A stretch of 64,000 nucleotides of DNA, from contig CM075991.1 of NCBI GenBank assembly GCA_038087875.1, forward strand, positions 1,860,001 through 1,924,000. Direction: 5' to 3'. Shown piece by piece: positions 1-52,835 of this stretch. The stretch comes from Malacoraja senta (Eukaryota). Each line of letters begins with the position of its first letter. Within the stretch, counting starts at the first letter, position 1. The translations under genes and the position numbers were made by a program. Under the pieces are notes generated by a model. The model was not told the origin of the DNA. It worked only from the letters and a program-made list of their open reading frames with translations, and made no database searches.

Positions 1-993
1 GCATAGATCTGCAAAATGCATATTATTCTGTGGCAATGCATGGTAATGATCAAAGATATTTGAAATTTAGATGGATGTCAGTTATGGCAATTTAAAGCAT
101 TGCCCAATGGTCTGATTTCAGCACCAAGATTATTCACTAAATTGCTCAAACCAATTTTAGCTCTGTTAAGAGCTGAGGGCCATGTATTAATGGTTTATTT
201 AGATGATATCCTCATTGTAGGGGACACTTTGGCTGCTGCAAAATTGTCAGTATCCAGTCAAATACATTTTGAGAAATTAGGTTTCATTATTCACCTACAA
301 AAATCTAAATTGTTACCAAGCAAAAAGATTGATTACCTAGGGTTCACAATTAACTCCGAACACATGGTAATCACTTTGCCAAAAGATAAAAAGCTGCAGT
401 TAATTGAAGGTTGCATAAAACTCATTAACGAGGGCACACCTTCAATCAGAGAAGTGGCAAGCTTGCTAGGCAAATTAATTGCAGGGTTTCCAGCGGTCAC
501 GTTTGGACCATTGCATTATCAATGTTTACAGAGAGCTAAGGTACAAGTGTTAAAAATGAATGGAGGGCATTTTGATAGGCCCATGAAATTAACAATTCAA
601 TCCATTACAGAAATAGAATGGTGGATTAACAATGTTTCTAATGCTTCCAGAAAAGTTCTGGTAGAAACACCTTCCGTCACTCGACAGACTGATGTAAGTG
701 CGCTGAGTTTGGGCGCTACTAACATGATTTCCAGCTGTGGAGGTAGGTGGAATGTGAAGAAGTACCTTTGCTGGAAAAACTGGGAATCAATTACCTAGAG
801 CTATTAGGCGCATTTTACGGCCTTAGAGCTTATTGCACTGATATGGGAAATGTGCATGTTCAGGTACAGGTTGACAATACTACAGTCTGTAGCATACATA
901 AATCACATGGGTGGTATAAAATCAGAATCATGTGATAAATTGGCAAATGAAATTTGGACCTGGGGTATTGCCAGAAAAATGTGGCTGTCAGCA
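1..993 (+). pseudogene. DIRS reverse transcriptase / RNase H, frameshifted
   Basis: ORF 100..798 has the YLDD motif and YLGFTINS. ORF 747..935 has RNase H motifs. The reading continues to WLSA just before the insertion and resumes as YLPGK after about 1876. Confidence 0.9.
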
Positions 994-1863
994 ATAGTAT
1001 AGTATAGTATTTTAATGACCACACAGCCAAGCTGGTGGAATTTTGGTTTGTCAGCAGCGATACAATAATAAGAACACACAACCTCAATAAAAAAATGTAA
1101 CACAAACATCCACCACATCATTCATCACTGTGGTGGAAGGCACAAAAATTTGGCCAATCCTCCTCCATTTCCCCTCCGTGAACAGGACCAGAGTCCAGAG
1201 TCAGTCCAGGATCGGCTCTTCCTCACCGGAGACCGCGGCTTTAAGTTGTTGTAGGCCGCAGGCCGGCTGTCGAGATTTAAAGTCTCCGCCGCAGCCAGAA
1301 GCACCGTAGACTGCAGGGCCGGCGGTCGAAGCTCCCCTGCAGGGGTGTTGGTAAGTCCATGCCGGCCCCGCGGTAGAAGTTGGCCGCGGGCCGGCAGTGA
1401 TGGCTTCTTCTTCCCCCCCGGGTCCCCCACGAGGGATCCCGGGCTGTGGACGCCGCACCAGCTGGAGCTCTGCAGACCGCGACTTCAGGCTGCGACTTCA
1501 GGCTGCCGGCTGCCCCGGGCCAGCGAAACAGAGCGCTCCCCTCCAGCGAGGGCTCACCCGCTCCACGCCGAGAGTCCACGCTGCGCCCGCAGCTGAAGCC
1601 CCGGGCGCGTCTCCGGGAAAGGCCGCGCCGATCCTTGATGTTAGGCCACGGGGGAGGCGACCCGGAAAAAGTCGCCTCTCCATGGAGGAGGCGACCGAAG
1701 CGGTTTCCCCCTTACCCCCTTACCCCCCCACCATCCCCCACACAAGACACACAAAGAAACACAAAATACATACTTTAAAACATACTAAAAAATAAGAAAA
1801 AGTTGAAAAAACTGACACGCTGCTGACATGGCCGCTGCCCAGAGCAGCGCCCCCTACCCGGAT
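994..1863 (-). mobile_element. GC-rich non-autonomous retroposon with LINE-type 3' tail, inserted in DIRS RNase H
   Basis: Minus strand ends in (ACTAT)n. It shares GGGAAACCG, GGCCTAACATC and GCCTTCCAYCACAGTGA plus a hairpin with 17265-18045, and it splits the DIRS reading frame. Confidence 0.8.
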
Positions 1864-1945
1864 TTTTACCAGGTATATTTACCAGGTAAAATTTAATACA
1901 ATTGCAGACAAAAGATCACGTAAATTTAATGATAATACAGAATGG

Positions 1946-2388
1946 ATGTTAAATCGGAAAATATTCACACAAATTATCACACAATTTGGAATGCCAGAAA
2001 TTGATCGGTTTGCATCAAGATTGAACCACCAGTTGCCTAAGTATGTGTCATGGGAACCTGATCCTGGAGCAGTAGTGGTGGATGCTTTCTCGCTACATTG
2101 GGGTGGTTTGTTTCTGTATGTTTTTCCACCATTTTGTTTAATCCACAAATGCATACAGAAAATTAAACAAGATTCAGCCTCAGGGATTTTGGTAGTACCT
2201 GATTGGCCTACACAGGTATGGTACCCACTGGTGTTAAAAATGGAGGGAAAAAAAAAAAAAAAGAAGAAGTAAAAAAAAAAAAAACCCTTATGGTTATTCC
2301 AAAACAGATTAAACTGCTTGTACACCCTGTGACTAATGAATCACATCCTTTACATAATCGTATTGGTTTGTTGATTTGCAGATTCTAA
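1946..2388 (+). pseudogene. DIRS DNA N6-adenine methyltransferase-like (Dam-type) domain
   Basis: PEIDRFASRLNHQL...VDAFSLHW...LYVFPPF...LVVPDWPTQVWYP, the MT domain typical of DIRS1 pol. An A-rich run at 2248-2284 disrupts it. Confidence 0.85.
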
Positions 2389-2399
2389 GAAGGCCATAT

Positions 2400-3343
2400 C
2401 TTGGAAAAGGATTATCAGACCGTACGGTGGATGTTATGACAGCAGCCTGGAGGAATAGTACCCAGAAGCAGTACATTTCCTATATAAAGAAATGGGAGGT
2501 GAAACAGCAGAAATTTCAGATGTAATAGAGTTTCTTTCAACTCTACACTATGAATTGAAATTAAGTTATAGTGCAATTAATACTGCACGAAGTGCACTCC
2601 CTGCATATTTAAGCAGTGAATCAGAACAAACTCCAATTGGAGCACATCCTTGGGTCTGTAGGTTTATGAAAGGAATTTTCAACTCTAATCCTCCCAGACC
2701 CAGGTATACAGAAATTTGGAATGTAAAAGATGTACTGATGTTCCTAAGAAATTGGAATCCAGTTGAAACTCTGTCATTATCCAAAATTACCATGACATTG
2801 GTTATACTCATGGCATTAGTTTCAGCGCAGAGAGTTCAAACATTACAGAAACTCAGAATTGATAGAATGAAAGTAGGGCAAAATGCCGTGACATTCTATG
2901 TGTATGATTTACTGAAGCAAAGTAGACCTGGGTTCACAGGATGCAAGTTGGAATTTTTAGCATATCCTACAGATTCACGACTGTGTGTAGTCACATATGT
3001 GAAATGTTACATAGAAACAACAAAAGTTTTAAGAGGCGCCGAATTGGCATTTTTTATTAGTCATAAAAAGCCTCATAAGAAAGTGTGAACACAAACAATT
3101 TCACGATGGTTGAAACAGGTGTTGAGATATTCAGGTATTGATACTGATAAATTTAAATCTCATTCCACCAGGGCGGCATCAACATCAGCGGCCAGGGATT
3201 CAGACGTGCTAATAGACCTTATTCTCATGGCCGCAGGATGGGCAAGTGAACAGATGTTTCACAAGTATTACCACAAGGAGATTAAAGATCTCAGAGGGTT
3301 TGGTAATGCCGTGCTGGATACAGTATTAAACCCCCCATTATAA
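2400..3343 (+). pseudogene. DIRS tyrosine recombinase (one internal stop, one frameshift)
   Basis: N-terminal AAWRNSTQKQYISYIKKW and LSYSAINTARSAL. Catalytic R (SAQR), K (LKQSRP), HSTR, AGW and FHKYY are present. TGA at 3086-3088. Confidence 0.9.
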
Positions 3344-3479
3344 TAAATGGGCCTAATTTTGTTACTTTTATTAAAATAAATAAAACCATTAACTGATTAC
3401 ATTCAAATGTTGTGGTTATGCATTGTTGATTGTGCTTACTCAAATGCAGTGAACACCTGGATTTGAATCCACGGTGTGA

Positions 3480-3768
3480 AATCGCAGAGCTTTGAAATCT
3501 TCACGTAGTCACTCACGTGACTCCGAAGTAAAATAGTAAGATTAAACGAGAACTTACCAAGTTTGAAGTTTGATCTTTATTTTATGAGGAGTAATGTTGA
3601 GGGATTACGTGCCCTCCGCTCCCACCCTCATAAAAGGATCAAGCTGGTAGTTCTAAGTCTTTATGCATCTTACTATCATACTTCAGTAATTATCGTCTGT
3701 GATTGTCACTCCGCTGCTTTGAAAGATTGACGCGTGTGCGGCTGGACGGGGCTTCTTCACGTAATCCC
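3480..3768 (+). repeat. DIRS internal complementary region / right terminal repeat (truncated)
   Basis: GGGATTACGTG (3601-3611) is the reverse complement of CACGTAATCCC (3758-3768). TCTTCACGTA recurs at about 3499 and 3754. Confidence 0.7.
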
Positions 3769-3800
3769 GCGTACTTTCTTACCTGTTAAAAACCGCCGAA

Positions 3801-4011
3801 ATGGTCAATTTTGTCACTGTAAATAATTGTGGAAATCGGGGGAGACATTTATCCTACTTCAGAATTCCAAAAGTGAGGAGAAATGTTCGTAGAGAGAAGC
3901 GACGGGTGAAGGAACAACAACAGCTAAAGTGGTTGGCGAACATTGGCCGTGCAGATATCAAGATTGAAAATATTGGGAATTATCACGTTTGCTCACAGCA
4001 TTTCATCAACA
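3801..4011 (+). pseudogene. THAP zinc-finger exon of a DNA transposon (duplicated copy)
   Basis: MVNFVTVNNC...SYFRIP...KW...HVCSQHF followed by donor GTGAGG. The first Cys is lost. Confidence 0.8.
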
Positions 4012-4242
4012 GTGAGGCATTATTTGTGTTTCTTCTTGATTCCTTTAGTATCTAAAAAGTTTCAGAAGTGATAAATCTGACCGTAAAATGTTAAAATCGC
4101 CCATGGTTCTCAAGTGGGTTTTTACATGCAAATAGAAAACGCTTCTGAAGCCAAATTTATCGTTTAAAAAATCTCCAGACTTACCAATGGTGTGTGGGAA
4201 AGTAAGTTTTCTATCATTATGCTATTGAGATATATATTTTGG

Positions 4243-5113
4243 CAAATAATAAAATAATAAAATAATAAGTTAAACAAGATATACTCAGACCAAGTTATAA
4301 AACTTTATCAACATACAAAACAATTAAATTTTGAATTTGATGATAAACCACAAAAACTAATAGCGCGTCAACTTTGTAAACTGGACGGGGAAAAAACAAT
4401 TTACAAAATTAGATCAGACAAGGGAGAAACATTAACACTGCCTAAAGATATTAATGATAGATTTTTACAATACTATCAAAAACTGTACTCATCTAAAACG
4501 ACAGAACAATCAGCAGGAATGGAAAAATTTCTACAGAAATGTAATCTTACGGGTTTAGACCAGAAAGAGAGAGAATCACTGGATGCTGAAATTACGGTAA
4601 AAGACATAGAAGAGTCAATTAGATCATTAAAAAACGGAAAGGCCGCAGGTCCTGATGGTCTAAGCTCTGAATTTTATTAAAAATTTATGAACTGATTTCT
4701 CCACGCCTACAGACACTGTACAAATACGCTTACACTCAACAGAAACTCCCAGAAACTCTAAATGAATCTACAATCATACTTATACCAAAAACGGATAAGG
4801 ATCCTGAAGACCCAGGTTCATATAGAACAATAGCTCTCTTAAATACTGATCAGAAAATATTAACCAAAATCCTATCTCATAGATTGAGCTTAGTGATTAA
4901 CAAATTAATACACCCCGACCAAACAGGTTTTATTCCAAAATGTTACTCATTCTATGATCTGAGAAGACTATTCAATATTATATACTCAAATAGAATTCCT
5001 AATGCAGATCTAGCAATTATTTCGTTAGATGCTGAAAAAGCATTTGACCAGGTAGAATGGTCATGTTTATTTTCGGTAATGGAAAAATTTCAACTGGGAG
5101 AGAAGTACTGTAC
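4243..5113 (+). mobile_element. L1 ORF2 fragment (duplicated copy)
   Basis: GKAAGPDG, SYRTIALLNTDQKILTKILS, IHPDQTGFIP, SLDAEKAFDQVEW. Confidence 0.9.
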
Positions 5114-5500
5114 CAGGGCTCCAAATTAGAGGTTGCCCGGGTGCCACTGACCACTCAAAGCGCCGCCGGGCAACCTAAACACCGAGTCATTTTGCCCGGC
5201 TTGGCAACCAGATACTGGTTTGTACCGAAGAAAGACACAAAAAACTGGAGTAACTCCGCGGGTCAGGCAGCATCTCTGGAGAAAAGGAACGCAATGTTTG
5301 TATCGGCGGTGACGGCTGTATTGCGGGGCAAAGATACTAGGTGCGGGGTGAGGAAGGGTCGGAGTGAATGACGGGCTTCGCACAGCGGCAGCAGCGGCCG
5401 CGACAGCGGCTCCATCTCCTCCTCCTCCCGCACCCACCCGCCCTGATAAGGGCCTCTGCTTGGAAACCCGCGAGCAGCAATAACCGCTTTCGAAACAAAC

Positions 5501-9180: not shown

Positions 9181-9463
9181 AACAACTAATATATCTGACA
9201 ATAAAACGCACTATTGATGAGAGACGGCAGATGATGGAACCTGGTGCAAAAAAAAACTGCTGGAGCATCTCAGAGGGTGGAGCAGCATCTGTGGGGGAGG
9301 GGAACTGCGGATGTTCGGGGTCGAGCCCCTGCAGCAGGACTGAGAGTGTTGATAATAGGGGGGTTGCATGTAAGGTCATCGGGTCAAAGGGCATGACGCA
9401 CGGAGCAGCTCAACCCGTCTGGAGGACATAGCAGCCTACGGCACACACTTTTAACACACAAAA

Positions 9464-11193
9464 CGCGTACTTTCTTACCTGTTAAAAACCGCCGAAATGG
9501 TCAATTTTGTCACTGTAAATAATTGTGGAAATCGGGGGATACATTTATCCTACTTCAGAATTCCAAAAGTGAGGAGAAATGTTGGTAGAGAGAAGCGACG
9601 GGTGAAGGAACAACAACAGCTAAAGTGGTTGGCGAACATTGGCCGTGCAGATATCAAGATTGAAAATATTGGGAATTATCACGTTTGCTCACAGCATTTC
9701 ATCAACAGTGAGGCATTATTTGTGTTTCTTCTTGATTCCTTTAGAATCTAAAAAGTTTCAGAAGTGATAAATCTGACCGTAAAATGTTAAAATCGCCCAT
9801 GGTTCTCAAGTGGGTTTTTACATGCAAATAGAAAACGCTTCTGAAGCCAAATTTATCGTTTAAAAAATCTCCAGACTTACCAATGGTGTGTGGGAAAGTA
9901 AGTTTTCTATCATTATGCTATTGAGATATATATTTTGGCAAATAATAAAATAATAAAATAATAAGTTAAACAAGATATACTCAGACCAAGTTATAAAACT
10001 TGATCAACATACAAAACAATTAAATTTTGAATTTGATGATAAACCACAAAAACTAATAGCGCATCAACTTTGTAAACTGGACGGGGAAAAAACAATTTAC
10101 AAAATTAGATCAGACAAGGGAGAAACATTAACACTGCCTAAAGATATTAATGATAGATTTTTACAATACTATCAAAAACTGTACTCATCTAAAACGACAG
10201 AACAATCAGCAGGAATGGAAAAATTTCTACAGAAATGTAATCTTACGGGTTTAGACCAGAAAGAGAGAGAATCACTGGATGCTGAAATTACGGTAAAAGA
10301 CATCGAAGAGTCAATTAGATCATTAAAAACGGAAAGGCCGCAGGTCCTGATGGTCTAAGCTCTGAATTTTATTAAAAATTTATGAACTGATTTCTCCACG
10401 CCTACAGACACTGTACAAATACGCTTACACTCAACAGAAACTCCCTGAAACTCTAAATGAATCTACAGTCATACTTATACCAAAACGGATAAGGATCCTG
10501 AAGACCCAGGTTCATATAGAACAATAGCTCTCTTAAATACTGATCAGAAAATATTAACCAAAATCCTATCTCATAGATTGAGCTTAGTGATTAACAAATT
10601 AATACACCCGACCAAACAGGTTTTATTCCAAAATGTTACTCATTCTATGATCTGAGAAGACTATTCAATATTATATACTCAAATAGAATTCCTAATGCAG
10701 ATCTAGCAATTATTTCGTTAGATGCTGAAAAAGCATTTGACCAGGTAGAATGGTCATGTTTATTTTCGGTAATGGAAAAATTTCAACTGGGAGAGAAGTA
10801 CTGTACCAGGGCTCCAAATTAGAGGTTGCCCGGGTGCCACTGACCACTCAAAGCGCCGCCGGGCAACCTAAACACCGAGTCATTTTGCCCGGCTTGGCAA
10901 CCAGATACTGGTTTGTACCGAAGATAGACACAAAAAACTGGAGTAACTCCGCGGGTCAGGCAGCATCTCTGGAGAAAAGGAACGCAATGTTTGTATCGGC
11001 GGTGACGGCTGTATTGCGGGGCAAAGATACTAGGTGCGGGGTGAGGAAGGGTCGGAGCGAATGACGGGCTTCGCACAGCGGCAGCAGCGGCCGCGACAGC
11101 GGCTCCATCTCCTCCTCCTCCCGCACCCACCCGCCCTGATAAGGGCCTCTGCTTGCAAACCCGCGAGCAGCGATAACCGCTTTCGAAACAAAC
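9464..11193 (+). repeat. Segmental duplication copy B
   Basis: Near-identical to 3768-5500 and embedded in intact context on both sides. Confidence 0.95.
9497..9707 (+). pseudogene. THAP exon, left arm
   Basis: ORF 9497..9751 with NNC...FRIP...W...VCSQHF, then a GT donor. Confidence 0.8.
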
Positions 11194-11397
11194 CCTCCCG
11201 CACTCCGAGGCCGGGAGCAGGGAAGGAGGGAGGGGGAGGCCTCGGCGTGCGGGAGTGTTTGTTTTGAAAGCGGTTAACGCTGTTAGCGGGTTTGCAAGCA
11301 GAGGCCCTTATCAGGGCGGGCGGGGGGCGGGAGGAGGAGATGGAACCGCTGTCGCGGCCGCTGCTGCCGCTGTGCGAGGCCCGTCATTCGCTCCGAC
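11051..11397. repeat. Long GC-rich inverted repeat (about 160-bp arms, about 25-nt loop)
   Basis: GTCGGAGCGAATGACGGG...CCGAGGCC (to 11212) pairs with GGCCTCGG (11238)...CCCGTCATTCGCTCCGAC. Confidence 0.92.
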
Positions 11398-11559
11398 TCG
11401 TCTGAAGCAGCTGCACCAAAGATCTTATAGCTATAGGATCTTTGAGCTGCAACGCCCGGCCCCGCACCTTGCTGTTGACTGGCGGAGGAGGGAGGCGGTG
11501 GCGAGGAGTTCCCAACGGCCAAGGCAGCGGGGCAATGTTGTCCGAGGAGCGCTGACCTT

Positions 11560-12400
11560 CCTTCCTCCCCACCTCGTCCCCCCTCTCCCTCTCTCTCTCT
11601 CTTGTATGCCCCCTCCACCCCCTTATCCTGGGACCCCTCCACTCCATCCCACACTGATCCCCATTCCCGCCTCTATTCAGTCCTCACTGACATCCACTTT
11701 GCTCCCCTCCCCATCTACCCCCCCCCCCATCTATTCATCCTGCGCTGATCACCCTATCCACCTCGCACTGATTCTCCTGCCACCCCCCCCCCCATCCATC
11801 CTACACTGGTTCCCCAATTCACCCTGTACTTACTCCTTTCCCATCCATCCTCCACTTCTCCTCCATCCATCCTGTACTGATCGCCCATCCATCCTGTACT
11901 AATCCACGCATTCATCCCATACTGACCCACCCTCCATTTACCCTGCACCTTCCCCCCTTCCCCTCATTCATCCTGTAGTGATCCCCCATTCATCCTGCAC
12001 AGACCCTCCGATCCACACTGTACTGACCCCCCCCCCCCATTCATCCTGCACTGATCTCCCCCCCCATCCATCCTGTACCGACCCTCCCATTCAAGAAGAA
12101 TGGGGGGAACAGTCGGAAGAAGGGTCTCGAACCAAAACGTTGCCTATTTCCTTCGCTCCATAAATGCTGCCTCACCCGCTGAGTTTCTCCAGCACTTTTG
12201 TCTGACTGAACCCCCCCCAATTCAACAACACTGACATCCCCAGTGCTCTCCCCTCACAATTTTACCTACTCCAACCAACACGTACTAATTCACCTGCCTC
12301 AATCCATCCATTCTGCACCGACTGCCTTCTAATCGCCCGCCCCCCACCCCCGCCATCTGTCCACCCCGCACTGATTCACACACGCCCCCCTCCCTGACCC
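11560..12400. repeat. C-rich degenerate minisatellite
   Basis: Recurring (C/T)CATCCTG(T/C)ACTGA followed by C-runs. Confidence 0.8.
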
Positions 12401-14260
12401 TATTGTGCTGGAAATGTCTTCAGAGCGAACTTTGACTATGTTTGATAACGGAATGCAATCAAATGTGTTTTAATTCCCAATGTTATTATTTGTTTTAATA
12501 CATAAAGATGGATTAATTAAATTGTGAACACGTGAAACATTAAAACGGCACTGCTGCTGTTGACACGTTATTACAGAATTCATTTTAACGGCAAATCAAT
12601 GCTCTTAATATGGAGTATCAGTACTGTAGTTATTTAATGAGCAACATTCACAACTATACGTAAGCATATATGTTACCATGGTCCAGGATTTATTTACACA
12701 GGTTGATCATACGCTGAATAATCCAACCACATTGTTGTTTGGAAGTGGAAAGAACTAATAGAAATTGCATTCATTGCAATGTGTAAAAAGAGTTGAGATA
12801 CTGTCTTATAATTTTGCTGCATGTCATTGTGCGATATATCATGCCTTGATTGGTGAATATTTGTTTGTGACTTTATTTGAAGCAGAAATAATATGTGAAT
12901 GCTTCATTGAGTATAATTCCGACTGGTAACTACGCACTTTGTCCGAGCACATTATTGCATGCGTCATGCAAGCCATCTTAAATGACCACCTAAACTGTCA
13001 TTTGGCAACCTAAAAAGCTGCCACGGTTGCCCGGCTGGCAACAGGGGGAAAAAATTAAGCGAGAGCCCTGTGTACATGGGTTAAATTGTTATACTCTAAC
13101 CCGACAGCTGGAATATTAACAAACCAAATGTTATCAGCTAAATTTAATCTTTCTAGAGGTTGCAGACAAGGATGTTCACTATCCCCACTATTATTTGCTC
13201 TTGCAATTGAACCATTAGCAGAAAGCGTTAGAACCCATCCAGGAATACACGGGTACAACACTAGAGACACAAGGAATAACATTTCTTTATATGCAGATGA
13301 TGTACTAATATATATTACAAAGTTAGAAACTAGTATTCCAAATCTATTAAATCTAATAACTCAATTTGGTCAGTTCTCAGGATATAGAATTAACTGGAAT
13401 AAAAGTGAAATCATGCCAATAACAAAATTCAATTTACATACATTACAGCAATCCCCTTTTAAAATAGTTAAAGATAAACTTAAATATTTAGGAATCTACG
13501 TAACTAAGACATATACCTCTTTATTTAAACTAAATTTTCCACCCTTACTGAATAAATTACACAAGAATATTCAGTACTGGAAAACACTTCTCATTTCAAT
13601 GCTTGGTAGAATTAATGCTATAAAAATGATCTGCTTACCGCAACTACTGTACCTATTTCAATTAATTCCGATATATATCCCAAAAAACTTTTTCAAAAAA
13701 GTAGATTCCATTGTTACAAGCTTTATTTGGGATTATAAGAATCATAGAATAAGTAAAAAACATTTATGTAAGTCAAAGAGCAATGGAGGTTTGGCCTTGC
13801 CAAATTTCTTATTTTATTTCTGGGCAGTCCATATTAAAAACATGAATTTCTGGCTGGAAGAAATGGATCAACAAGCAGATTGGTTAAGGATGGAAAAGGA
13901 AGACTGTTTACCTTTTGAAATTGGTTCGATTATATTTGCTCCCACAAAACTGCATTAAAAAAACTATAAGGAAAACCCTATAATACATAGTGGAATATGA
14001 ATTTGGAAACAATTAAAAAGAGCTTTGAAACTGAATAATATACCACTATGTCTTCCCATTGTAAATAATCCTTTATTCAAGCCATCCATATTGGATAAAG
14101 TTTTCACACAATGGAAACATTTTGGAATTAAAAAGATTGGACATCTTTATAGGAAAGGCATCTTTCTTTCATTTCAAGAGTTACAACGGAATCATGGACT
14201 GCACTCAAATAATTTCTTCAGATTTCCACAAATTAGAGATTATGTTAAATCTAATACACA

Positions 14261-16275
14261 AAAGTGAAATCATGACGTTAAAACCTCAAGAATCTACACA
14301 CTTATTGAAGTTCCCCTTTAAAATTGCAACAGAAAAATTTAAATATTTGGGTATTCAAATTACTAGAAAATATAAAGCATTATTCAATGCTAATTTTATA
14401 CCTTTATTAAATAAACTCAATATGTTGATTAAATTTTGGAAAACACTTCCTTTATCATTAATAGGTAGAATAAACGCTATAAAAATGATCTTTCTACCAC
14501 AATTATTATACCTATTTCAGTCTATACCATTATATATACCAAAATATATATTTTTAAAATTAGACTCTAATATTACTAATTTTATTTGGGATTATAGATC
14601 ACATAGAATAAAAAAAAACACTTATGTAAACCAAAAGATGTCGGGGGACTTTCACTCCCGAATTTTTTGTATTACTATTGGGCAGTGCATATTAAGAATA
14701 TAGTTTACTGGTTGGACAGTTCTACCCAACAGAGAGAATGGTTAAGAATGGAGAAAGAGGATTGTTTTCCTTGTAATATAGGAACGATCCTCTTCTCCCC
14801 GAAAAAACTGAACACAATATATAAGAACCCAATTATACACGATACAATAAGAATTTGGAAACAAATAAAATTATCTTTAAAATTAAGAAATTTATCATTG
14901 TTAATGCCAATAGCGAATAATCCTTTATTTAAACCATCTCTTATTGATAAAACATATAACCAATGAGAAAGATTGGGAATTAAAAGGATCGGTGTTATGT
15001 ATGAAATGGGAAATCTATTATCATTCCAACAATTACAATTAAAATTTAAACTGAAAAACAACCTATATTTTAAATATCTTCAGATTTGCGATTTCATGAA
15101 GAAATAATAATAATAATAATAGATTTTATTTATATAGCGCTTTTCAGGACTCAAAGTCGCTTTACATTGAGAGTCAGGAATAAACAAAACAAAATAGAGC
15201 AGTAAAACAAAATAGAGCAGTAATACATACAAGGATATCAAAAAATAACTTTTGATTTACTGGAAGAAGCAATGAATATTAAGGCTGACTCACAAAATTT
15301 AATATCATATTTATATAATAGTATTTTAAATATAGACCTACCATCGACAGAGGTACTTAGCGAAGAGTGGGAACGGGAATTAATGATAAAAATTACGAAG
15401 GTTACATGGGAAAAGTATTTGATATATATACACAAATGTTCGATTAATGCAATACATAATTTAATTCAATCTAAAATTTTACATAGATTATATTATTCAA
15501 AAACTAGATTGAATAAATTTTATCTAAATATATCCCCCATTTGTAATAAATGTCTATCCCAAAATGCAACTATAACACATTCTTTCGTTTCCTGCATAAA
15601 ACTTTATAAATTTTGGAGTGATATTTATGAAATATTTACAAAATTATGGCAAGATAAGAATGGAACCTAATACTGAAATGATTATATTTGGAGTAATGGA
15701 AGATGGGAATAAATTGAACTCATCTCAAAATTTATTTTAAAATTATGGTTTAATAATAGCAAAAAAACTAATACTTAAATTTTGGAAAAAATACACCAAT
15801 ACTAACGCTTAAAATGTGGATTTCAAGCATGTTGGACACCGCACATCTTGAGGAAATGCGATTCCTCCTAATAGATAAATCAGACCAATTCTTAACGAGT
15901 TGGTCTCCATTTGTCATCTTTTTGGAATCATATGGTGCAACATAATTGTAGAAGCTAACTGTTCCAGGACTGGGTGAGGGATGGTCAAGATTATAAATAA
16001 TGATCTCTTACTTTTATTTTTTTTCTTTTTGTTATCTCTTTTTTCTATTTTCTTTTCTTCAACTTTCTTCTTTCACTCTTTTTTTTTCTTTTTCACACAC
16101 TATATATTTCACGTTTTTCTATCTTTTATTATTTAATTATTTTTTTCTTATTCTTCTTTACCATAATAAAAAATATAAGAAGCTGTACATAAAATGTATT
16201 ATGTCAATATATATTAGGCACTTTGGTGCCATATGATTGTACTTACTTCTAATAAAATTAAAATATATATTTTTT
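14261..16275 (+). mobile_element. L1 element B (different subfamily) nested in L1 A
   Basis: TSD AAATCTAATACACA (14247-14260, 16276-16289) after TT, the L1-EN-type TT|AAA site. KYLGI, GRINAIKM, CNKC...HSFVSC, T-rich 3'UTR, AATAAA. Confidence 0.92.
15104..15222 (-). mobile_element. Short L2-type 3' tail inserted in L1 B
   Basis: (AAT)n followed by TTTATTTATATAGCGCTTTTC...AAAGTCGCTTTACA, the reverse of an L2 terminus. Confidence 0.6.
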
Positions 16276-17264
16276 AAATCTAATACACATGTTTATAGGA
16301 CTAGGGAACCAGAAATTCTTGATGAATGTTTGAATAAGCATCCTAACACTGAAAAATTTATAGCTTATATTTATAACACCCTCTTAAACAACGAGGTACC
16401 ACCGATGGAACTATATAGACACACATGGGAAACTGAGTTAGGTCATCCTATAACGAAAGATATTTGGGACGAAAGTTTACAACATATACATCGATGCTCG
16501 TTAAATGCCAGACATGCTTTAATACAATTTAAAGTCTTACACAGATTACATTACTCCAAAATAAAACTAAATAGAATCTTCCCACATATTTCTCCTATTT
16601 GTGATAAATGTCTGAATCTAGAGGCCAATTTAACACATACTTTTGCAAATTGTACAAAAATTAAAAATTTCTGGACTGATATTTTTGAAATAAATTCTGA
16701 AGTTGTTAATACTAAATTGGATCCAGACTCAAAATTAAATAATACTTGGGATATCAAAACAAAGTTTAACACTCACAACAAGCCAAAGAAACTTCCTCGA
16801 CCACAGTATAATAACTGGGAAAAAATTAATATTAAAATTTTGGAAAGGCCCTATAACCCCTACAATTAAAATGAGGATTGAGGAAATGAGGAAATGTCGG
16901 AGACCCTACATCTAGAAAGAATTAGACTTGTCTTAATGGAAAAACAAGAACTTTTTGTTAAAATATAGGCTCCATTCATTAACTATTTGAAGGGATAGAT
17001 TGGCCCAGCACGAAAACCCAACTGAAGCTTGAACTCAGGATTAGATGTAAAATTATACTTCATAACCTACGAACTTATCTCCAATGACATATTATAAGTA
17101 ATTCATTCCACCTTCTCTTTTTTTTTGATATTTGTAATTCTTTTTTCTTTCTATCTCTCTTTTTCTATCTATAAAAAAAAACACTAGAAGCAGAATTAAT
17201 GGACAATTGAAAAGTTTAATAATGTATGATTGATGTATATGAAAAGTTTTTTTACTATAATACT

Positions 17265-18045
17265 AACGGCAGCGGCTCGACTACAGTCGTCCGTCTTTTT
17301 TTAATTTTTGTCTTGTTAAATGTATGTCTTGAGCTTAGTTTTTATTATTTTTTAGCTGGTGTATATGTGGGGGGTGGGGGGTGGAGGGGGGGATGTGGGG
17401 GAAACCGTTAGTCTCTTCCCTGTAGGGGAACCGACGTTTTCCATGTCGGGTCTCCGATGTCGTTGGGCCTAACATCGTGGAGCAATGGCGGCTGCCTCCG
17501 GCCGGGACCAACCTGAGGGCTCCAGTCGCGGAGCCTGGGACCTGGCCGGCTTCGGAGGGGAGAGCTGTGGTGGCGCTCGGCTGCGACCCGACTTTGGAGT
17601 TTCGGAAGCTCCGGCTGCTGGCCCGGTGGACAGGAACATCGGGAGCTCCAGGTCCCTGGTGGGAGACGGCTTTTCAGAGCTCCCGCAACGGCAACTTCTC
17701 CCGCTGGAATCGCGGAGTTTGGAGGACACGGAGCGGGGCCTAACACCGCCCGGCGCGGGTTAGCGGCCACGGGACTTACCGTCGCCCGCCGGGGGCTCTA
17801 ACATCGGAGCCCCAGTTCGCCTAGACGCTGCAGGTGACTGTTGGACCGCGGGTGAAGAATAAAAGGGAAGAGATAAGACTTTGCCTTCCATCACAGTGAG
17901 GAGGTGTTGGAGACTCACTGTGATGGATGTTTATGTAAACTGTGTTAAATGTGGGTCTTGTTTTTTTTGTAATGTAAAAAAAACTGTAGTAATGAAATTT
18001 CGTTCAAGCCTGGTTTGAATGACAATAATATAGCATTCAATTCAA
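17265..18045 (+). mobile_element. GC-rich non-autonomous retroposon in L1 A 3'UTR
   Basis: Homologous motifs to 994-1863, 14-bp stem at 17887-17927, tail GAAATTTCGTTC...TGACAATAAA...(TTCAA)n. Confidence 0.8.
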
Positions 18046-18399
18046 TATGTTACTATACTTTATAATATGTTTGCTTCTAATAAAAAATACAAAATTAAAA
18101 TTTAAAAAAAGACCTGACAGCTTAAACACCCACTCAAAGATATTGTCAATTTGCTGAGGTTGATTATGTCCAATTAACAGCTAACAATTATGCCATTCCT
18201 TGCCTTGCATCTGAGTAAAATGTAATTCAAAACCCACGTATGGTTTGCGATTTTTTTTAAATGATAAATTTAGCTTCAGAAGCGTTTTCTTTGTGCATGT
18301 AAAAACCCACTTGAGAACCATGGGCGATTTAAATTTTAAAGACAGATTTATCACTTTTGAAACGTTTGACACAAAGGAATGAAGAAAAAACACAAATAA

Positions 18400-18627
18400 T
18401 GCCTTACTGTTGATGAAATGCAGTGAGCAAACGCGATAATTCCCAATATTTTCAATCTTGATATCTGCACGGCCAATGTTCGCCAACCACTTTACCTGTT
18501 GTTGTCCCTTCAACTCTCGCTTCTCTCTACCTTCATTTCGCTTCACTTTTGGAATTCTGAAGTTGGGTACATGTCTCTCACACTTACCCGACTTCCACAA
18601 TTTTTTACAGCGAAAAAATTCAACATT
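18400..18627 (-). pseudogene. THAP exon, right arm (frameshifted)
   Basis: MLNFFAVKNC / NFRIPKV...VKWLANIGR...YRVCSLHF, then GTAAGG. Confidence 0.8.
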
Positions 18628-19071
18628 TTGGCGGTTTTTAACAGGTAGGAAAGTAGCGTTTCTGCATAATAACATATACCGGAGGTTACGGATGTCCTCC
18701 AGAAGGATGGAGCTGCTCCGTGTGTCACGCCCTTTGACCCGATGACCTTACGTGCAACCCCCCTATTCCTCTCTTGCCACCAGTCCCCGACAGTTGCTGC
18801 TTCACCAACTCAGTTCCTCCAGCGCTTGTTTCTTGGCCCCGTCATTGTACCCGGGTGAGAGTAATTAATGCTCCCGGTTGTGTTTGTTTAATAAAAACGA
18901 GAATGTGAGATCCAGAAGTGAAATTTGATTCCAATTGGAAAGGAATAAAACCGACAGACACTGGATTTAATTTCACACCACTCGCCGCGGGCGGTCAGTC
19001 GAGTAATTTACATCCAGGGCATCCGGAAATCACCAAACTGCGGAACAAAGAGAGAAAAAGCTGATGTTTAC

Positions 19072-19386
19072 CTTCGCAGATAACGCCGGCATCGTAGGAG
19101 TGTGGAACGTTATAGTCCCTCCATGGCTCTGATCTACACTCCCGCAGAGCGGCCTCGCTCCCGCTGCACCGAACATCTGACGTCACAATGGGTCCGGACC
19201 CCGGTCCAAAGTGAGCATCGCCCGGGGCTCCCGTCGCGGGGCCGCAGCCCAGCTCCCGACACACCACCGCCGCGTCCTGCAGGTCCCAGCCGTAATCATA
19301 CACAGTCCCCCAGTTCCCCTTGTAGTGAACCTCCACTCTCCCGGCGCATGGACTGCCCCCGTTCACCAGCCCTCACTTCACGCTTT
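19072..19386 (-). CDS. Group B scavenger receptor cysteine-rich (SRCR) domain exon, CD163/DMBT1/WC1-like. An in-frame TGA near the start makes it possibly pseudogenic
   Basis: Acceptor TTTTTGTTTCAG, 315 nt, phase 1-1, donor [48 protein letters not shown]...HFGPGSGPI...[13 protein letters not shown]...DAGVICE. TGA at 19375-19373. Confidence 0.9.
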
Positions 19387-19727
19387 CTGAAACAAAAATC
19401 AGAAAATAGAAGAACAAACGTTACCGCCGGTTTGAGCCGCGGGTCAGTCGGCGCCCCGCACACCGCGCTCCCAGCCACCCCTAGCTCCAACCATTCAAAG
19501 TCCACATGTATCACGGAATGATCAACGGAGCGGCAGACCGGAATGAACTGTTAACAGTGTCAACAATAGTCAGTAAGCTGGTAACCGTCCGGAGAACCGG
19601 GATCACCCGGTCATTCTCGGGGAGAGCGGCTGATGAGCTGCGCGGGTCAGTGTCCCGTTGTACTCAAAGCTCATGTGACGGGCAATGGAACCCAAACGTG
19701 TTAGAGGTGTGAAGGCATTCCTGGAAT

Positions 19728-20591
19728 ATGGAGGTTTCACGGCAGTCGGGTGACGACCCCATGACCCGTACTGTTGCTACGCTACGCCAAGTGGATTACA
19801 CGCGATGAACTGCAGGCAGGCACTTACCATTGTTTCCAGCGTAGCGGGCCCGTAAAACCCGCCGAAATGGTCAATTTTTGCGCTGTAAATAATTATGGAA
19901 ATCGGGATAAGCGTGAGAGACATTTAGCCAACTTCAGAATTCAAAAAGTGTGGAGAAATGACGGTAGATTGAAGCGAGAGCTGAAAGGAACAACAGCCAG
20001 AGTGCTTGGCGAACATTGGCCGTTTGCTCACTGCATTTCATCAACTAAGGCATTATTTGTGTTTTTTCTTGATTCCTTTGGCATCTAAAAAGTTTCAGAA
20101 GAGATAATCGCCCCTGGTTCTCGTGGGTTTTTACATACAAAAATAAAACGCCTCTGAAGCAAAATTTACAACCAGATTTACCACTTCTGAGACTTTTTAG
20201 ATACCAAAGAAATAATTTAAAAAAAAATAATGCCTTACCGTTAATGAAATGCAGCGAACAAACGCGATAAATCCCGATATTTTCAATCTTGATATCTGCA
20301 AGGCCAATGTTCGCCAAGCACTTTAGCTGTTGTTGTCCCTTCAGCTCTCGCTTCTCTTTACCTTCATTTCGCTTCACTTTTGGAATTCTGAAGTTGGGTA
20401 CATGTCTCTCACACTTACCCCACAATTTTTTACAGCGAAAAAAATCAACATTTTGGCGGTTTTTAACAGGTAGGAAAGTAGCGTTTCTTGTATTAATAAC
20501 ATATACCGGAAGTGACGGATGTCTTCCAGATGGATTGAGCGGCTCCGAGCGTCAAGCCCTATGACCCGGTGACATTACGTGCAACCCCCCT
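19728..20591. mobile_element. Compact ISL2EU/PHIS-like element with two convergent THAP arms
   Basis: AT|ATGGAGGTTTCACG ... CGTGCAACCCCCCT|AT (11/14 terminal match). THAP remnants MVNFCAVNN on + and NFRIPKV...YRVCSLHF on -. Confidence 0.75.
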
Positions 20592-38899: not shown

Positions 38900-39340
38900 G
38901 TTCAGGTCAGGTCTGAACTTCAAGATCCTCCTCCATGTCTACAAAGCCCTCAATGGGTTTTCCCCCACCTACATAAAAAAGTCTTCTCACCCACCACTCC
39001 ACCTCCAGGCCCCTCAGATCGGCCGACTTGGGGTTGCTGAATATCCCGCGGTCTAGGCATAAGCTCAGGGGCGACCGCGCCTTTGCGGTTGCAGCCCCTA
39101 GACTGTGGAACAGCATCCCCTTTCCCATCAGAACTGCCCCCTCCATCGACTCTTTTAAGTCAAGACTAAAGACTTATCTATACTCCCAAGCCTTTCTTGA
39201 CGCCCTCTGAGTGAGGGCTAACTGTATATATGTATGTAGTTTGTTTTGTTTGTGCTATTCTTATGACAAATGTAAAACACTTTGGCCAACAAGAGTTGTT
39301 TTTTAAATGTGCTATATAAATAAATGTGACTTGACTTGAC
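38900..39340 (+). mobile_element. L2 LINE 3' fragment
   Basis: GDRAFAVAAPRLWNSIP. Tail GCTATATAAATAAATGTGACTTGACTTGAC. Near-identical to the 3' end of 51561-52835. Confidence 0.9.
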
Positions 39341-51560: not shown

Positions 51561-52835
51561 AGTCAAGTCAAGTCAAGTCACATTTATTTATATAGCACAT
51601 ATAAAAAACAACTCTCGTTGGCCAAAGTGCTTTACATTTGTTATAAGAATAACACAAACAAAACAAAGTACATACATATATACATGTAGCCCTCACTCAA
51701 AGGACGTCAGGAAAGGCTTGGGAGTACAGTTAAGTCTTTAGTCTTGACTTAAAAGAGTCGATGGAGGGGGCAGTTCTGATGGGAAAGGGGATGCTGTTCC
51801 ACAGTCTAGGGGCTGCAACTGCAAAGGCGCGGTCGCCCCTGAGCTTATGCCTAGACCGTGGGATATTCAGCAACCCCAAGTCGGCCGATCTGAGGGGCCT
51901 GGAGGTGGAGTGGTGGGTGAGAAGACTTTTTATGTAGGTGGGGGCAAGTCCATTGAGGGCTTTGTAGACATGGAGGAGGATCTTGAAGTTTATACGGAAC
52001 CGCACAGGGAGCCAGTGGAGAGAGACCAGGATCGGGGTGATGTGGTCCCTTTTCCGGGTGCCCGTCAGGAGTCTCGCTGCGGCGTTTTGGACCAGTTGCA
52101 GGCAGGACAGGGAAGGTTGGCTGATGCCAGTGTAAAGGGAGTTGCAGTAATCTAGGCAGGAGGAGATGAACGTGTGGATGATCTTTTCCAGGTCATCAAA
52201 CTGGAGGAATTGTTTTATTTTAACTATCGTCCGAAGCTGAAAGAAGCTAGCTTTTACCATGGCATTGACTTGTTTGTCAAATTTCAGTGCTGAGTCAAAT
52301 ATCACGCCAAGGTTTTTGACGTGAGGTTTGAGTAGTGGGGTAAGGCTTCCAAGGCTGCCTGCTGTCATTTTGATTGAGTCCAAGGGGCCGAGAAGGATGA
52401 CCTCAGACTTACTCTTGTTTAGTTGGAGGGAGTTCTGGGCCATCCAACACTTTATATCTTCGAGGCAGTGGGTAAGGTTAAACAGATTTGATTGGTTTTG
52501 GGGCTTCAGGGGGAGATAGAGTTGTGTATCGTCTGCGTAGCAATGGAAGGAAATGCCGTGCCTTTCAATGACTTGGCCTAAGGAGAGCATATACAGGGAG
52601 AAGAGAATGGGGCCAAGGATGGAACCTTGTGGAACACTACAGCAGAGATTAGCTGGGGAGGAGAAAGAGTTGCCTATGTTAGTTGAGAAACTCCTACCTT
52701 TGAGGTAGGAGATGAACCAGCTCAGGGCAGTGCCATCAATACCAACCCCATACCGGAGACGGTCAATTAGGATGGTGTGGTCGACAGTATCAAATGCTGC
52801 GCTGAGGTCAAGAAGGAGCAGAATTGCACAGACAG
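51561..52835 (-). mobile_element. L2 LINE, 5'-truncated RT, relatively young
   Basis: LLDLSAAFDTVDH, PQGSILGP, CYADDTQLY, QLVQNAAAR, (GACTT)n tail. TSD AATGTCA at 51554-51560 and 52836-52842 inside a PLE LTR. Confidence 0.95.

What the first reader, a model, noticed from the sequence alone, without database searches (positions are those of the whole stretch)
9357..18764. Foldback DNA element whose long inverted arms each encode a THAP exon
Seen: the termini AGGGGGGTTGCAYGTAAGGTCA are inverted and flanked by AT. The inverted similarity continues about 500 bp through an ATG-initiated THAP exon ending at a GT donor on each side, so both arms read inward. Established: ISL2EU-type (PHIS) elements have AT TSDs, THAP-bearing transposases and a second YqaJ-like gene. 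Inference: either the parent has two convergent genes that each start with the same THAP module, or this non-autonomous family was built from two left ends. Either way it spreads promoter + THAP + splice-donor cassettes that could fuse to captured or host exons. This is the best candidate here for an undescribed system.
Basis: partly seen in the sequence, partly recalled or inferred. Interest (0 to 1): 0.7.

Follow-up and report, generated by a model that had tools for sequence, protein, structure and literature searches.

The report
Hairpin offspring of an ISL2EU transposon
This is a dead, 1.25-kb hairpin-shaped fragment of a known kind of DNA transposon (ISL2EU), whose front end, with the first exon of the transposase, was duplicated in reverse; it was later split by 8 kb of other repeats, and no fusion of its exon to host genes was seen.

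Summary
The arms are real: 9357-9867 and 18253-18764, 85% identical, AT on both sides. They are one element. A paralogous locus with the same flanks holds it as 1,251 bp; the window copy was split by about 8.15 kb of L1-type and other repeats. Its 4.5-kb parent is in this genome: convergent THAP-HTH-DDE and YqaJ-PHD genes. The YqaJ gene has no THAP, so the 'two THAP genes' idea fails. The arms are the parent's left end twice, around a 60-bp piece of YqaJ exon 1. The two-left-end form is rare: 0 of 70 dispersed copies, 3 loci in all. The common sister forms keep a left and a right terminus but still carry the exon twice. AT duplication is confirmed at empty sites of sister copies. Both window exons lack the first cysteine, the right one is frameshifted, and only 15 of 93 family copies are intact. 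RNA from related species shows only the native transposase splice. Closest analogues: maize Mu killer and Galileo extended TIRs. This scan noted ISL2EU foldbacks before in two other genomes (unchecked notes).

The parts
9355..9356 (+). AT target-site duplication, left
   Evidence: Sequence. Single AT at empty sites of sister copies. No empty paralog of this site itself was found.
9357..9867 (+). Left arm = inverted duplicate of the parent's left end (parent positions L1-~513: TIR, presumed promoter and 5' UTR, THAP exon, first part of intron 1)
   Evidence: 88.5% to parent L061 positions 1-522
9497..9707 (+). Degenerate THAP exon 1 (ATG 9497, GT donor 9708-9709); first Cys lost, 3 codons deleted, frame open
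9868..9922 (+). Remnant of the parent's YqaJ gene: end of exon 1 plus its GT donor (9898-9899)
   Evidence: tblastn 83% to YqaJ exon 1 residues 113-130; blastn 88.5% to parent L063
9920..9951 (-). Transposase intron 1 (parent L652-683), left of the later insertion
9952..18105 (+). Later nested insertions, not part of the element: L1-type LINE 3' fragments and a DNA element at about 10806-13054
   Evidence: Absent from paralog L024. RVT_1 at 13059-13955, E 6.3e-19. No DDE or YqaJ exon-2 tblastn hit anywhere in the window.
18106..18764 (-). Right arm = the parent's native left end (L1-656); the inverted-repeat part is 18253-18764; the stretch from about L70 inward was replaced by sequence of a later subfamily
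   Evidence: 87% to L061 1-656; groups with late-subfamily arms, support 99/99; late type in 27 of 30 paralogs
18408..18626 (-). Degenerate THAP exon 1 (ATG 18626, GT donor 18407-18406); first Cys lost, frameshift
18765..18766 (+). AT target-site duplication, right
19726..20591 (.). Second, separate member of the same family (short 'C' form): parent right terminus (128 bp) + inverted broken THAP exon + left end
   Evidence: absent from 28 of 29 paralogs, which show a single AT (one paralog gave no match)
3768..4255 (+). Truncated duplicate of the left arm and spacer, part of a 99% segmental copy (3768-5500) of 9464-11193

Best explanation
It is a non-coding foldback derivative of a two-gene ISL2EU DNA transposon in which the parent's left end occurs twice in inverted orientation, likely made by template switching during repair of an excision gap and likely moved in trans by the parent's proteins. 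Shown: the native element is about 1.25 kb, built as L(1-683) + reversed R(486-426) + reversed L(~520-1), where L and R are the parent's ends read inward. It inserted next to an SRCR exon, was copied with that gene array about 30 times, and in most copies was split by LINEs. Sister forms B (about 1.25 kb) and C (about 0.89 kb) swap the outer 121 bp of one arm for the parent's true right terminus and are far more numerous. Inferred: the joints arose at 2-5 nt microhomologies; C came from B by deletion between 14-nt direct repeats; a left plus a right terminus makes a better substrate than two left ends; the THAP exon is a passenger because it lies within 350 bp of the left terminus. Not resolved: whether the two-left-end form preceded B or arose from B by arm conversion.
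For: Compact paralog with the same flanks. Parent with THAP, HTH_Tnp_4, DDE_Tnp_4, YqaJ and PHD in convergent genes. Every part of the element maps to the parent's two ends. Fold-back junction: 262 exact matches, 0 in the reversed control. Both joints together: 203; the deletion joint with an unrearranged YqaJ exon: 0. Left termini 664, right termini 765 exact matches. On C1, 43 left-right pairs, 33 of them 849-903 bp. Single AT at empty sites. 15 of 93 exon copies intact, 28 of 93 frameshifted, 20 nonsense changes against 14.9 expected under a neutral null. Microhomologies seen; 14-nt direct repeats 345 bp apart in a B copy.
Against: No empty site was found for this insertion itself (0 matches; all 30 paralogs of the right flank are filled), so insertion as a two-left-end element versus conversion in place is open. 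The predicted plain deletion intermediate was not found, so a single complex event is equally possible. Synonymous changes in the exon are slightly above the neutral null (0.303 against 0.259, P=0.03). The arm tree is poorly resolved (12 of 61 inner branches strongly supported). Mobilisation in trans is untested.
Confidence: 0.85

Rival explanations
1. The parent has two convergent genes that both start with the same THAP module, and the element is a simple internal deletion.
For: The parent's genes are convergent, and B/C copies place a THAP exon behind the right terminus.
Against: The parent's right end carries a different first exon with no Pfam hit and no THAP-like tblastn hit at E<=10; left and right ends share only 16 bp. 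0 of 120 listed YqaJ homologues have PF05485. A piece of the true YqaJ exon 1 survives in the spacer.
Confidence: 0.02
2. The two arms are independent insertions of solo left ends that happen to face each other.
For: The arms are 8.4 kb apart, only 85% identical and fall in different tree clades.
Against: Paralogs L024 and L025 hold both arms about 225 bp apart with the same flanks. The same spacer lies between arms at unrelated loci. The right arm's different type is explained by conversion, since 3 of 30 paralogs keep the old type.
Confidence: 0.02
3. The family works as a mobile THAP exon cassette: its donor splices to host exons and makes THAP fusion proteins, for example with neighbouring SRCR exons (both end in phase 1).
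For: The donor is real: an RNA contig from a related species joins the THAP exon to transposase exon 2 at the predicted GT-AG sites (X6 record 8). The native acceptor (L~750) is missing from the derivative. 15 of 93 copies keep ATG, frame, C2CH and donor. Family sequence is in poly(A) RNA.
Against: Both window exons are defective. The exon lacks the C-terminal THAP motif, which in Leucoraja transposases follows the splice and which stabilises the fold in THAP1 (PMC3479173, passages). Decay looks neutral. No donor-anchored host sequence among the listed joints and loose ends (129 and 204 loose-end rows were not shown, 6% of the raw run was read, and the runs are of other species).
Confidence: 0.07
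4. The hairpin copies act like maize Mu killer: read-through or inward transcription gives double-stranded RNA of the transposase 5' exon, which likely silenced the autonomous family.
For: Same anatomy as Mu killer (two copies of the transposase-side end of a convergent two-gene element; PMC3440606, passages). Compact copies fold at -845, -717 and -408 kcal/mol against -296, -307 and -225 for 5 shuffles each, with perfect helices up to 82 bp. Family reads come from both strands. The array copies lie 300 bp behind an SRCR exon's donor.
Against: No small-RNA data. Strong folding follows from any inverted repeat. The hairpin subfamilies went on amplifying in successive waves, so any silencing did not stop transposition early. 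In 23 of 25 paired array copies the loop is 6-9 kb. Two-strand reads can come from many intronic copies.
Confidence: 0.15

Closest known systems
ISL2EU group of the PHIS superfamily (Han et al. 2015, PMC4482050)
   Same: AT duplication; parent with DDE+HTH+THAP transposase and a second YqaJ gene; parent length about 4.5 kb (reported mean about 4.84 kb); short parental TIR (16 bp).
   Different: Termini read AGG rather than the usual GG. Flanks are W-AT-W, mostly T-AT-A, not strictly A-AT-T. The derivative's 513-bp inverted arms exceed the reported 6-259 bp TIR range. The host is skate-like, while that paper reports PHIS absent from sharks and PMC9179366 reports ISL2EU absent from elephant shark.
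Mu killer of maize (PMC3440606)
   Same: Internally deleted, partly duplicated derivative of a convergent two-gene element, with both ends from the transposase side and two partial transposase 5' copies in inverted orientation.
   Different: Mu killer is one locus with shown silencing activity. Here the hairpin forms were themselves amplified to many hundreds of copies, most regained or kept a right terminus, and no silencing is shown.
Galileo extended-TIR (2RT) copies in Drosophila mojavensis (PMC3573991)
   Same: THAP-transposase DNA element whose non-autonomous copies lengthen their inverted repeats by recruiting internal sequence, with conversion and chimeras between subfamilies.
   Different: Galileo is a P-superfamily element with natively long TIRs. 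Here the parent's TIR is 16 bp and the recruited sequence includes a coding exon.

Membership tests
ISL2EU | 2-bp AT target-site duplication | tested here: met
   28 of 29 paralogs show one AT where the window's C copy shows two; 4 other insertions show a single AT in homologous empty repeats and 3 more show a 2-nt site with other letters. Not shown for this insertion itself.
ISL2EU | Transposase with THAP, HTH and DDE domains | tested here: met
   Parent L062/L063: THAP 41 bits, HTH_Tnp_4 61 bits, DDE_Tnp_4 154 bits; 91% to a Leucoraja erinacea protein with the same three domains.
ISL2EU | Second ORF with YqaJ exonuclease domain | tested here: met
   YqaJ 67-74 bits plus PHD in the parent; only an 18-codon remnant in the window element.
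ISL2EU | TIRs usually starting GG, target A|AT|T | tested here: inconclusive
   Empty sites place the terminus at AGG. The base beside the AT is A or T at 66 of 68 ends, most often T|A; the window's C site is A|AT|T.
ISL2EU | Placement in the ISL2EU clade of a DDE-domain tree with Repbase references | not tested
   No reference set was available; assignment rests on domain content and TSD.
Foldback / extended-TIR non-autonomous element | Long inverted arms around a short non-coding spacer, no transposase | tested here: met
   513 + 224 + 514 bp in L024; no DDE or YqaJ exon-2 hit in the window.
Foldback (FB-type) | Arms built of internal tandem repeats (recalled feature) | tested here: not met
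   No tandem array in the arms; only short two-copy repeats.
Mu killer-like silencer | Inverted duplication of the transposase-side end | tested here: met
Mu killer-like silencer | Small RNAs and trans-silencing of the autonomous element | not testable with these tools
   No small-RNA or same-species RNA run was listed.

The most novel reading that the evidence does not exclude
ISL2EU elements repeatedly throw off mobile 'killer-like' hairpins: foldback copies of the transposase 5' exon that are themselves amplified to many hundreds of copies, update their termini by conversion from younger autonomous subfamilies, and supply double-stranded RNA against the transposase in a vertebrate. The rarity of two-left-end copies beside abundant left+right copies would be a natural experiment showing that ISL2EU transposition needs unlike ends.
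Probability: 0.15. Interest if true: 0.6.

Novelty: new variant of a known kind. Interest (0 to 1): 0.3.

Why it matters
As it stands this is a well-resolved case of how a short-TIR transposon gives rise to foldback elements, with parent, joints and successive subfamilies in one genome. It also places ISL2EU, with near-intact copies, in a skate-like genome, whereas two surveys found it absent from the cartilaginous fish they examined and one proposed horizontal entry at the base of teleosts. It is not a new system for exon shuffling. If the hairpins prove to silence the parent, or the end asymmetry holds in an assay, it would give a first handle on ISL2EU control and mechanism; one of those papers states that no proof of ISL2EU activity has been reported.

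Tried and rejected
Empty paralog of the window's own site: pattern search 0 matches, and all 30 paralogs of the right flank are filled. Plain deletion intermediate: 0 matches. A first pattern for the right-terminus/left-arm joint was too strict (4 matches) and was not used for counting. A direct genome-wide count of two-left-end copies was not obtained, so their rarity rests on samples. Two loci first scored as two-left-end (L158, L177) proved to carry a right terminus. The one left-left pair on C1 is a C copy plus an adjacent fragment. No RNA holder of this stretch was listed; the RNA laid is from related species. The next SRCR-gene exon left of the element was not identified, so 'intronic' is likely, not shown. 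Terminal variants and the arm tree did not order the two-left-end form and B. Paper searches found no description of this layout or of ISL2EU in skates: 40 of 46 listed; 0 papers; Repbase and Dfam could not be searched, so the family may already be catalogued.
Full report
Observation. The inverted match is real: 9354-9867 against 18767-18253, 85.5% over 524 columns. The termini lie at 9357 and 18764 with AT outside each. Each arm holds an ATG-initiated exon that scores as Pfam THAP (35.1 and 26.1 bits, cut-off 23.9) and ends at GT. Neither is sound. Both lack the first cysteine, the left has lost three codons, and the right is frameshifted after about 13 codons.

One element, later split. The window is G000:C15:1860001-1924000 in a 1.94-Gb genome. 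The closest named relatives of the element's proteins are from the skates Leucoraja erinacea and Rhinoraja longicauda, so the host is probably a skate; that is inference. The locus is one of 30 paralogs that share the right flank and an SRCR exon. Paralog L024 has the same flanks on both sides and holds the element as 513 + 224 + 514 = 1,251 bp. In the window the spacer is interrupted from 9952 to 18105 by L1-type fragments (RVT_1, E 6.3e-19) and other repeats. In 25 paralogs where both ends could be paired the span is 1.2 kb in 2 and 6.2-9.4 kb in 23. No DDE or YqaJ exon-2 homology lies in the window.

The parent. Family searches of the genome gave 32 YqaJ matches (38 of 38 candidates scored) and 150 DDE_Tnp_4 matches (150 of 534 scored). 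Of 20 regions fetched around them, L061, L062, L063 and L074 carry the arm at one end and a different terminus at the other. L063 is 4.48 kb with a 16-bp TIR and AT outside. It has two convergent genes: THAP exon, intron, then HTH_Tnp_4 and DDE_Tnp_4; and, from the other end, an unrelated first exon, intron, then YqaJ and PHD. These copies carry frameshifts or insertions. The right end shares only the TIR with the left and has no THAP-like hit at E<=10. None of the 120 listed YqaJ homologues (of 187 found) has PF05485.

Anatomy of the derivative. With L and R for the parent's ends read inward, the element is L1-~520, then R426-486, then reversed L683-1. R426-486 is the end of YqaJ exon 1 with its own donor. 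The joints overlap by a few bases (about 2-5 nt). The fold-back joint has 262 exact matches and 0 in the reversed control. Both joints together occur 203 times, the deletion joint behind an unrearranged YqaJ exon 0 times. I infer template switching during repair of an excision gap, in one complex event or via an intermediate that left no copies.

The two-left-end form is the exception. I examined 70 dispersed junction loci, the first listed on contigs C1-C11 (70 of 262; one already held and those on later contigs were left out). The script scored 31 as B (right terminus R1-129 joined to L122 onward), 19 as passengers in a Helitron-like repeat, 18 as truncated or interrupted, and 2 as two-left-end. 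Both of those two have a right terminus on inspection, so the count is 0 of 70. Exact left and right termini number 664 and 765. On C1, 86 left and 87 right termini form 43 left-right pairs within 12 kb, 33 of them 849-903 bp, and one left-left pair that is a short copy plus a fragment. The 0.89-kb form C is R1-129 + L122-508 + reversed L440-1 in the 16 such copies aligned; a B copy has 14-nt direct repeats 345 bp apart at those points, so C likely came from B by deletion. Two left ends were seen at three independent places: this array, L028-L030 (one end lacks 8 nt) and L085. So nearly all forms carry the THAP exon twice, but the successful ones keep unlike termini. That a left and a right end are needed for efficient transposition is inference.

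Target site. The window's second copy (19726-20591, form C) is missing from 28 of 29 paralogs, which show a single AT (one gave no match). Four other insertions in host repeats show a single AT in homologous empty copies; three show a 2-nt site with other letters. Among 34 complete copies the next base is A or T at 66 of 68 ends.

Arm exchange. In a tree of 64 arms (12 of 61 inner branches strongly supported) the window's right arm groups with late B/C left ends at 99/99, while the right arms of compact paralogs do not. Late-type sequence from about L70 inward is in 27 of 30 paralogs and old-type in 3. Late B/C left ends also share diagnostic bases with the L062-type autonomous copy. This points to conversion between copies, as described for Galileo (PMC3573991, passages), and explains why the arms are 85% alike here and 90% in L024.

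Is the exon used? Of 93 full-length exon copies from 90 dispersed loci, 15 keep ATG, frame, C2CH and donor; right-side C copies were excluded by the coverage filter. 28 of 93 have a net frameshift and mean divergence from the majority is 6%. Nonsense changes number 20 against 14.9 under a spectrum-matched neutral null, but synonymous changes are slightly high (0.303 against 0.259, P=0.03), which I cannot fully explain. All 17 aligned C copies share a 38-bp deletion in the right-side exon and 16 lack its GT. The exon ends just after C2CH; the motif matching AVPTIF follows the splice in Leucoraja transposases and matters for THAP1 stability (PMC3479173, passages). No RNA run of this species was listed. 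In related species, one contig joins the THAP exon to transposase exon 2 at the predicted GT-AG (X6 record 8), and a second contig of equal length and depth (X8) appears to do the same. The B/C joints are present in runs of organisms A, B and H, so the family predates their split. Raw poly(A) reads cover the arm from both strands (833 laid, 16 at 99% or more), so they come mostly from other copies. No donor-to-host splice was among the listed joints and loose ends; 129 and 204 loose-end rows were not shown and only 6% of the raw run was read.

Comparison and novelty. It is a member of ISL2EU by TSD and parent gene content. In shape it matches maize Mu killer, in which both TIRs come from the transposase end of a convergent two-gene element (PMC3440606, passages). 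Compact copies fold strongly, as any inverted repeat would; silencing is untested. PMC4482050 reports PHIS absent from sharks, and PMC9179366 reports ISL2EU absent from elephant shark, proposes entry at the base of teleosts and asks for more cartilaginous fish (passages); the copies here and the named skate proteins extend that range. Searches (listings only, apart from the six papers named) showed no description of this family; Repbase, Dfam and the papers' supplements were not seen and may hold it. Two unchecked notes of this scan describe ISL2EU foldbacks in other genomes, found after my analysis was done.

Verdict. A real, well-explained non-autonomous ISL2EU foldback derivative: new variant of a known kind, interest 0.3.

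Noticed in passing
L098, L105, L107, L108, L118, L119, L160, L167, L182 and others (19 of 70 junction loci): A Helitron-like composite repeat carries a truncated copy of the element (one arm plus spacer). One end shows a hairpin followed by CTAG and then T in 8 of 12 loci checked; it also holds minisatellites. This second vehicle spreads the THAP exon.
   Followed up: partly
window 19073-19350 (-) and L215-L244: SRCR exon of an array of about 30 paralogs with variable residues in loops; the window copy has an early stop, while most paralogs are open. The rest of the gene was not identified.
   Followed up: partly
window about 10806-13054: DNA element with CAGGG...CCCTG ends and a 5-bp TGTAC duplication inside an L1-type ORF2, with an internal inverted repeat at 11046-11402; hAT5-like by recall, read by eye.
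   Followed up: no
window 1-3767: By eye a DIRS-like retrotransposon (RT/RNase H, methylase-like and tyrosine-recombinase-like frames), directly abutting the 99% duplicate 3768-5500 of 9464-11193; the same junction start occurs at C681.
   Followed up: no
window 38916-39340 and 51567-51990: Another long inverted pair, 425 bp at 95.5% and 12.2 kb apart.
   Followed up: no
L062:6000-6620: The autonomous copy L062 has a GC-rich, roughly palindromic insert of about 0.6 kb inside transposase exon 2.
   Followed up: no
G000:C8:25292821-25356420 (L031-L033, L078): Four tandem YqaJ-domain ORFs of 420-588 aa with no match to this family's ends; another family or a host gene cluster.
   Followed up: no
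P0002: An unnamed JGI protein on a 4-kb contig is 66% identical over 97% of the parent's YqaJ protein, far above the roughly 44% of the next non-skate hits; relevant to horizontal transfer or a close host.
   Followed up: no
L063:2336-2353: This autonomous copy has the right-type 16-bp terminus at both ends, suggesting conversion of the TIR tip.
   Followed up: no
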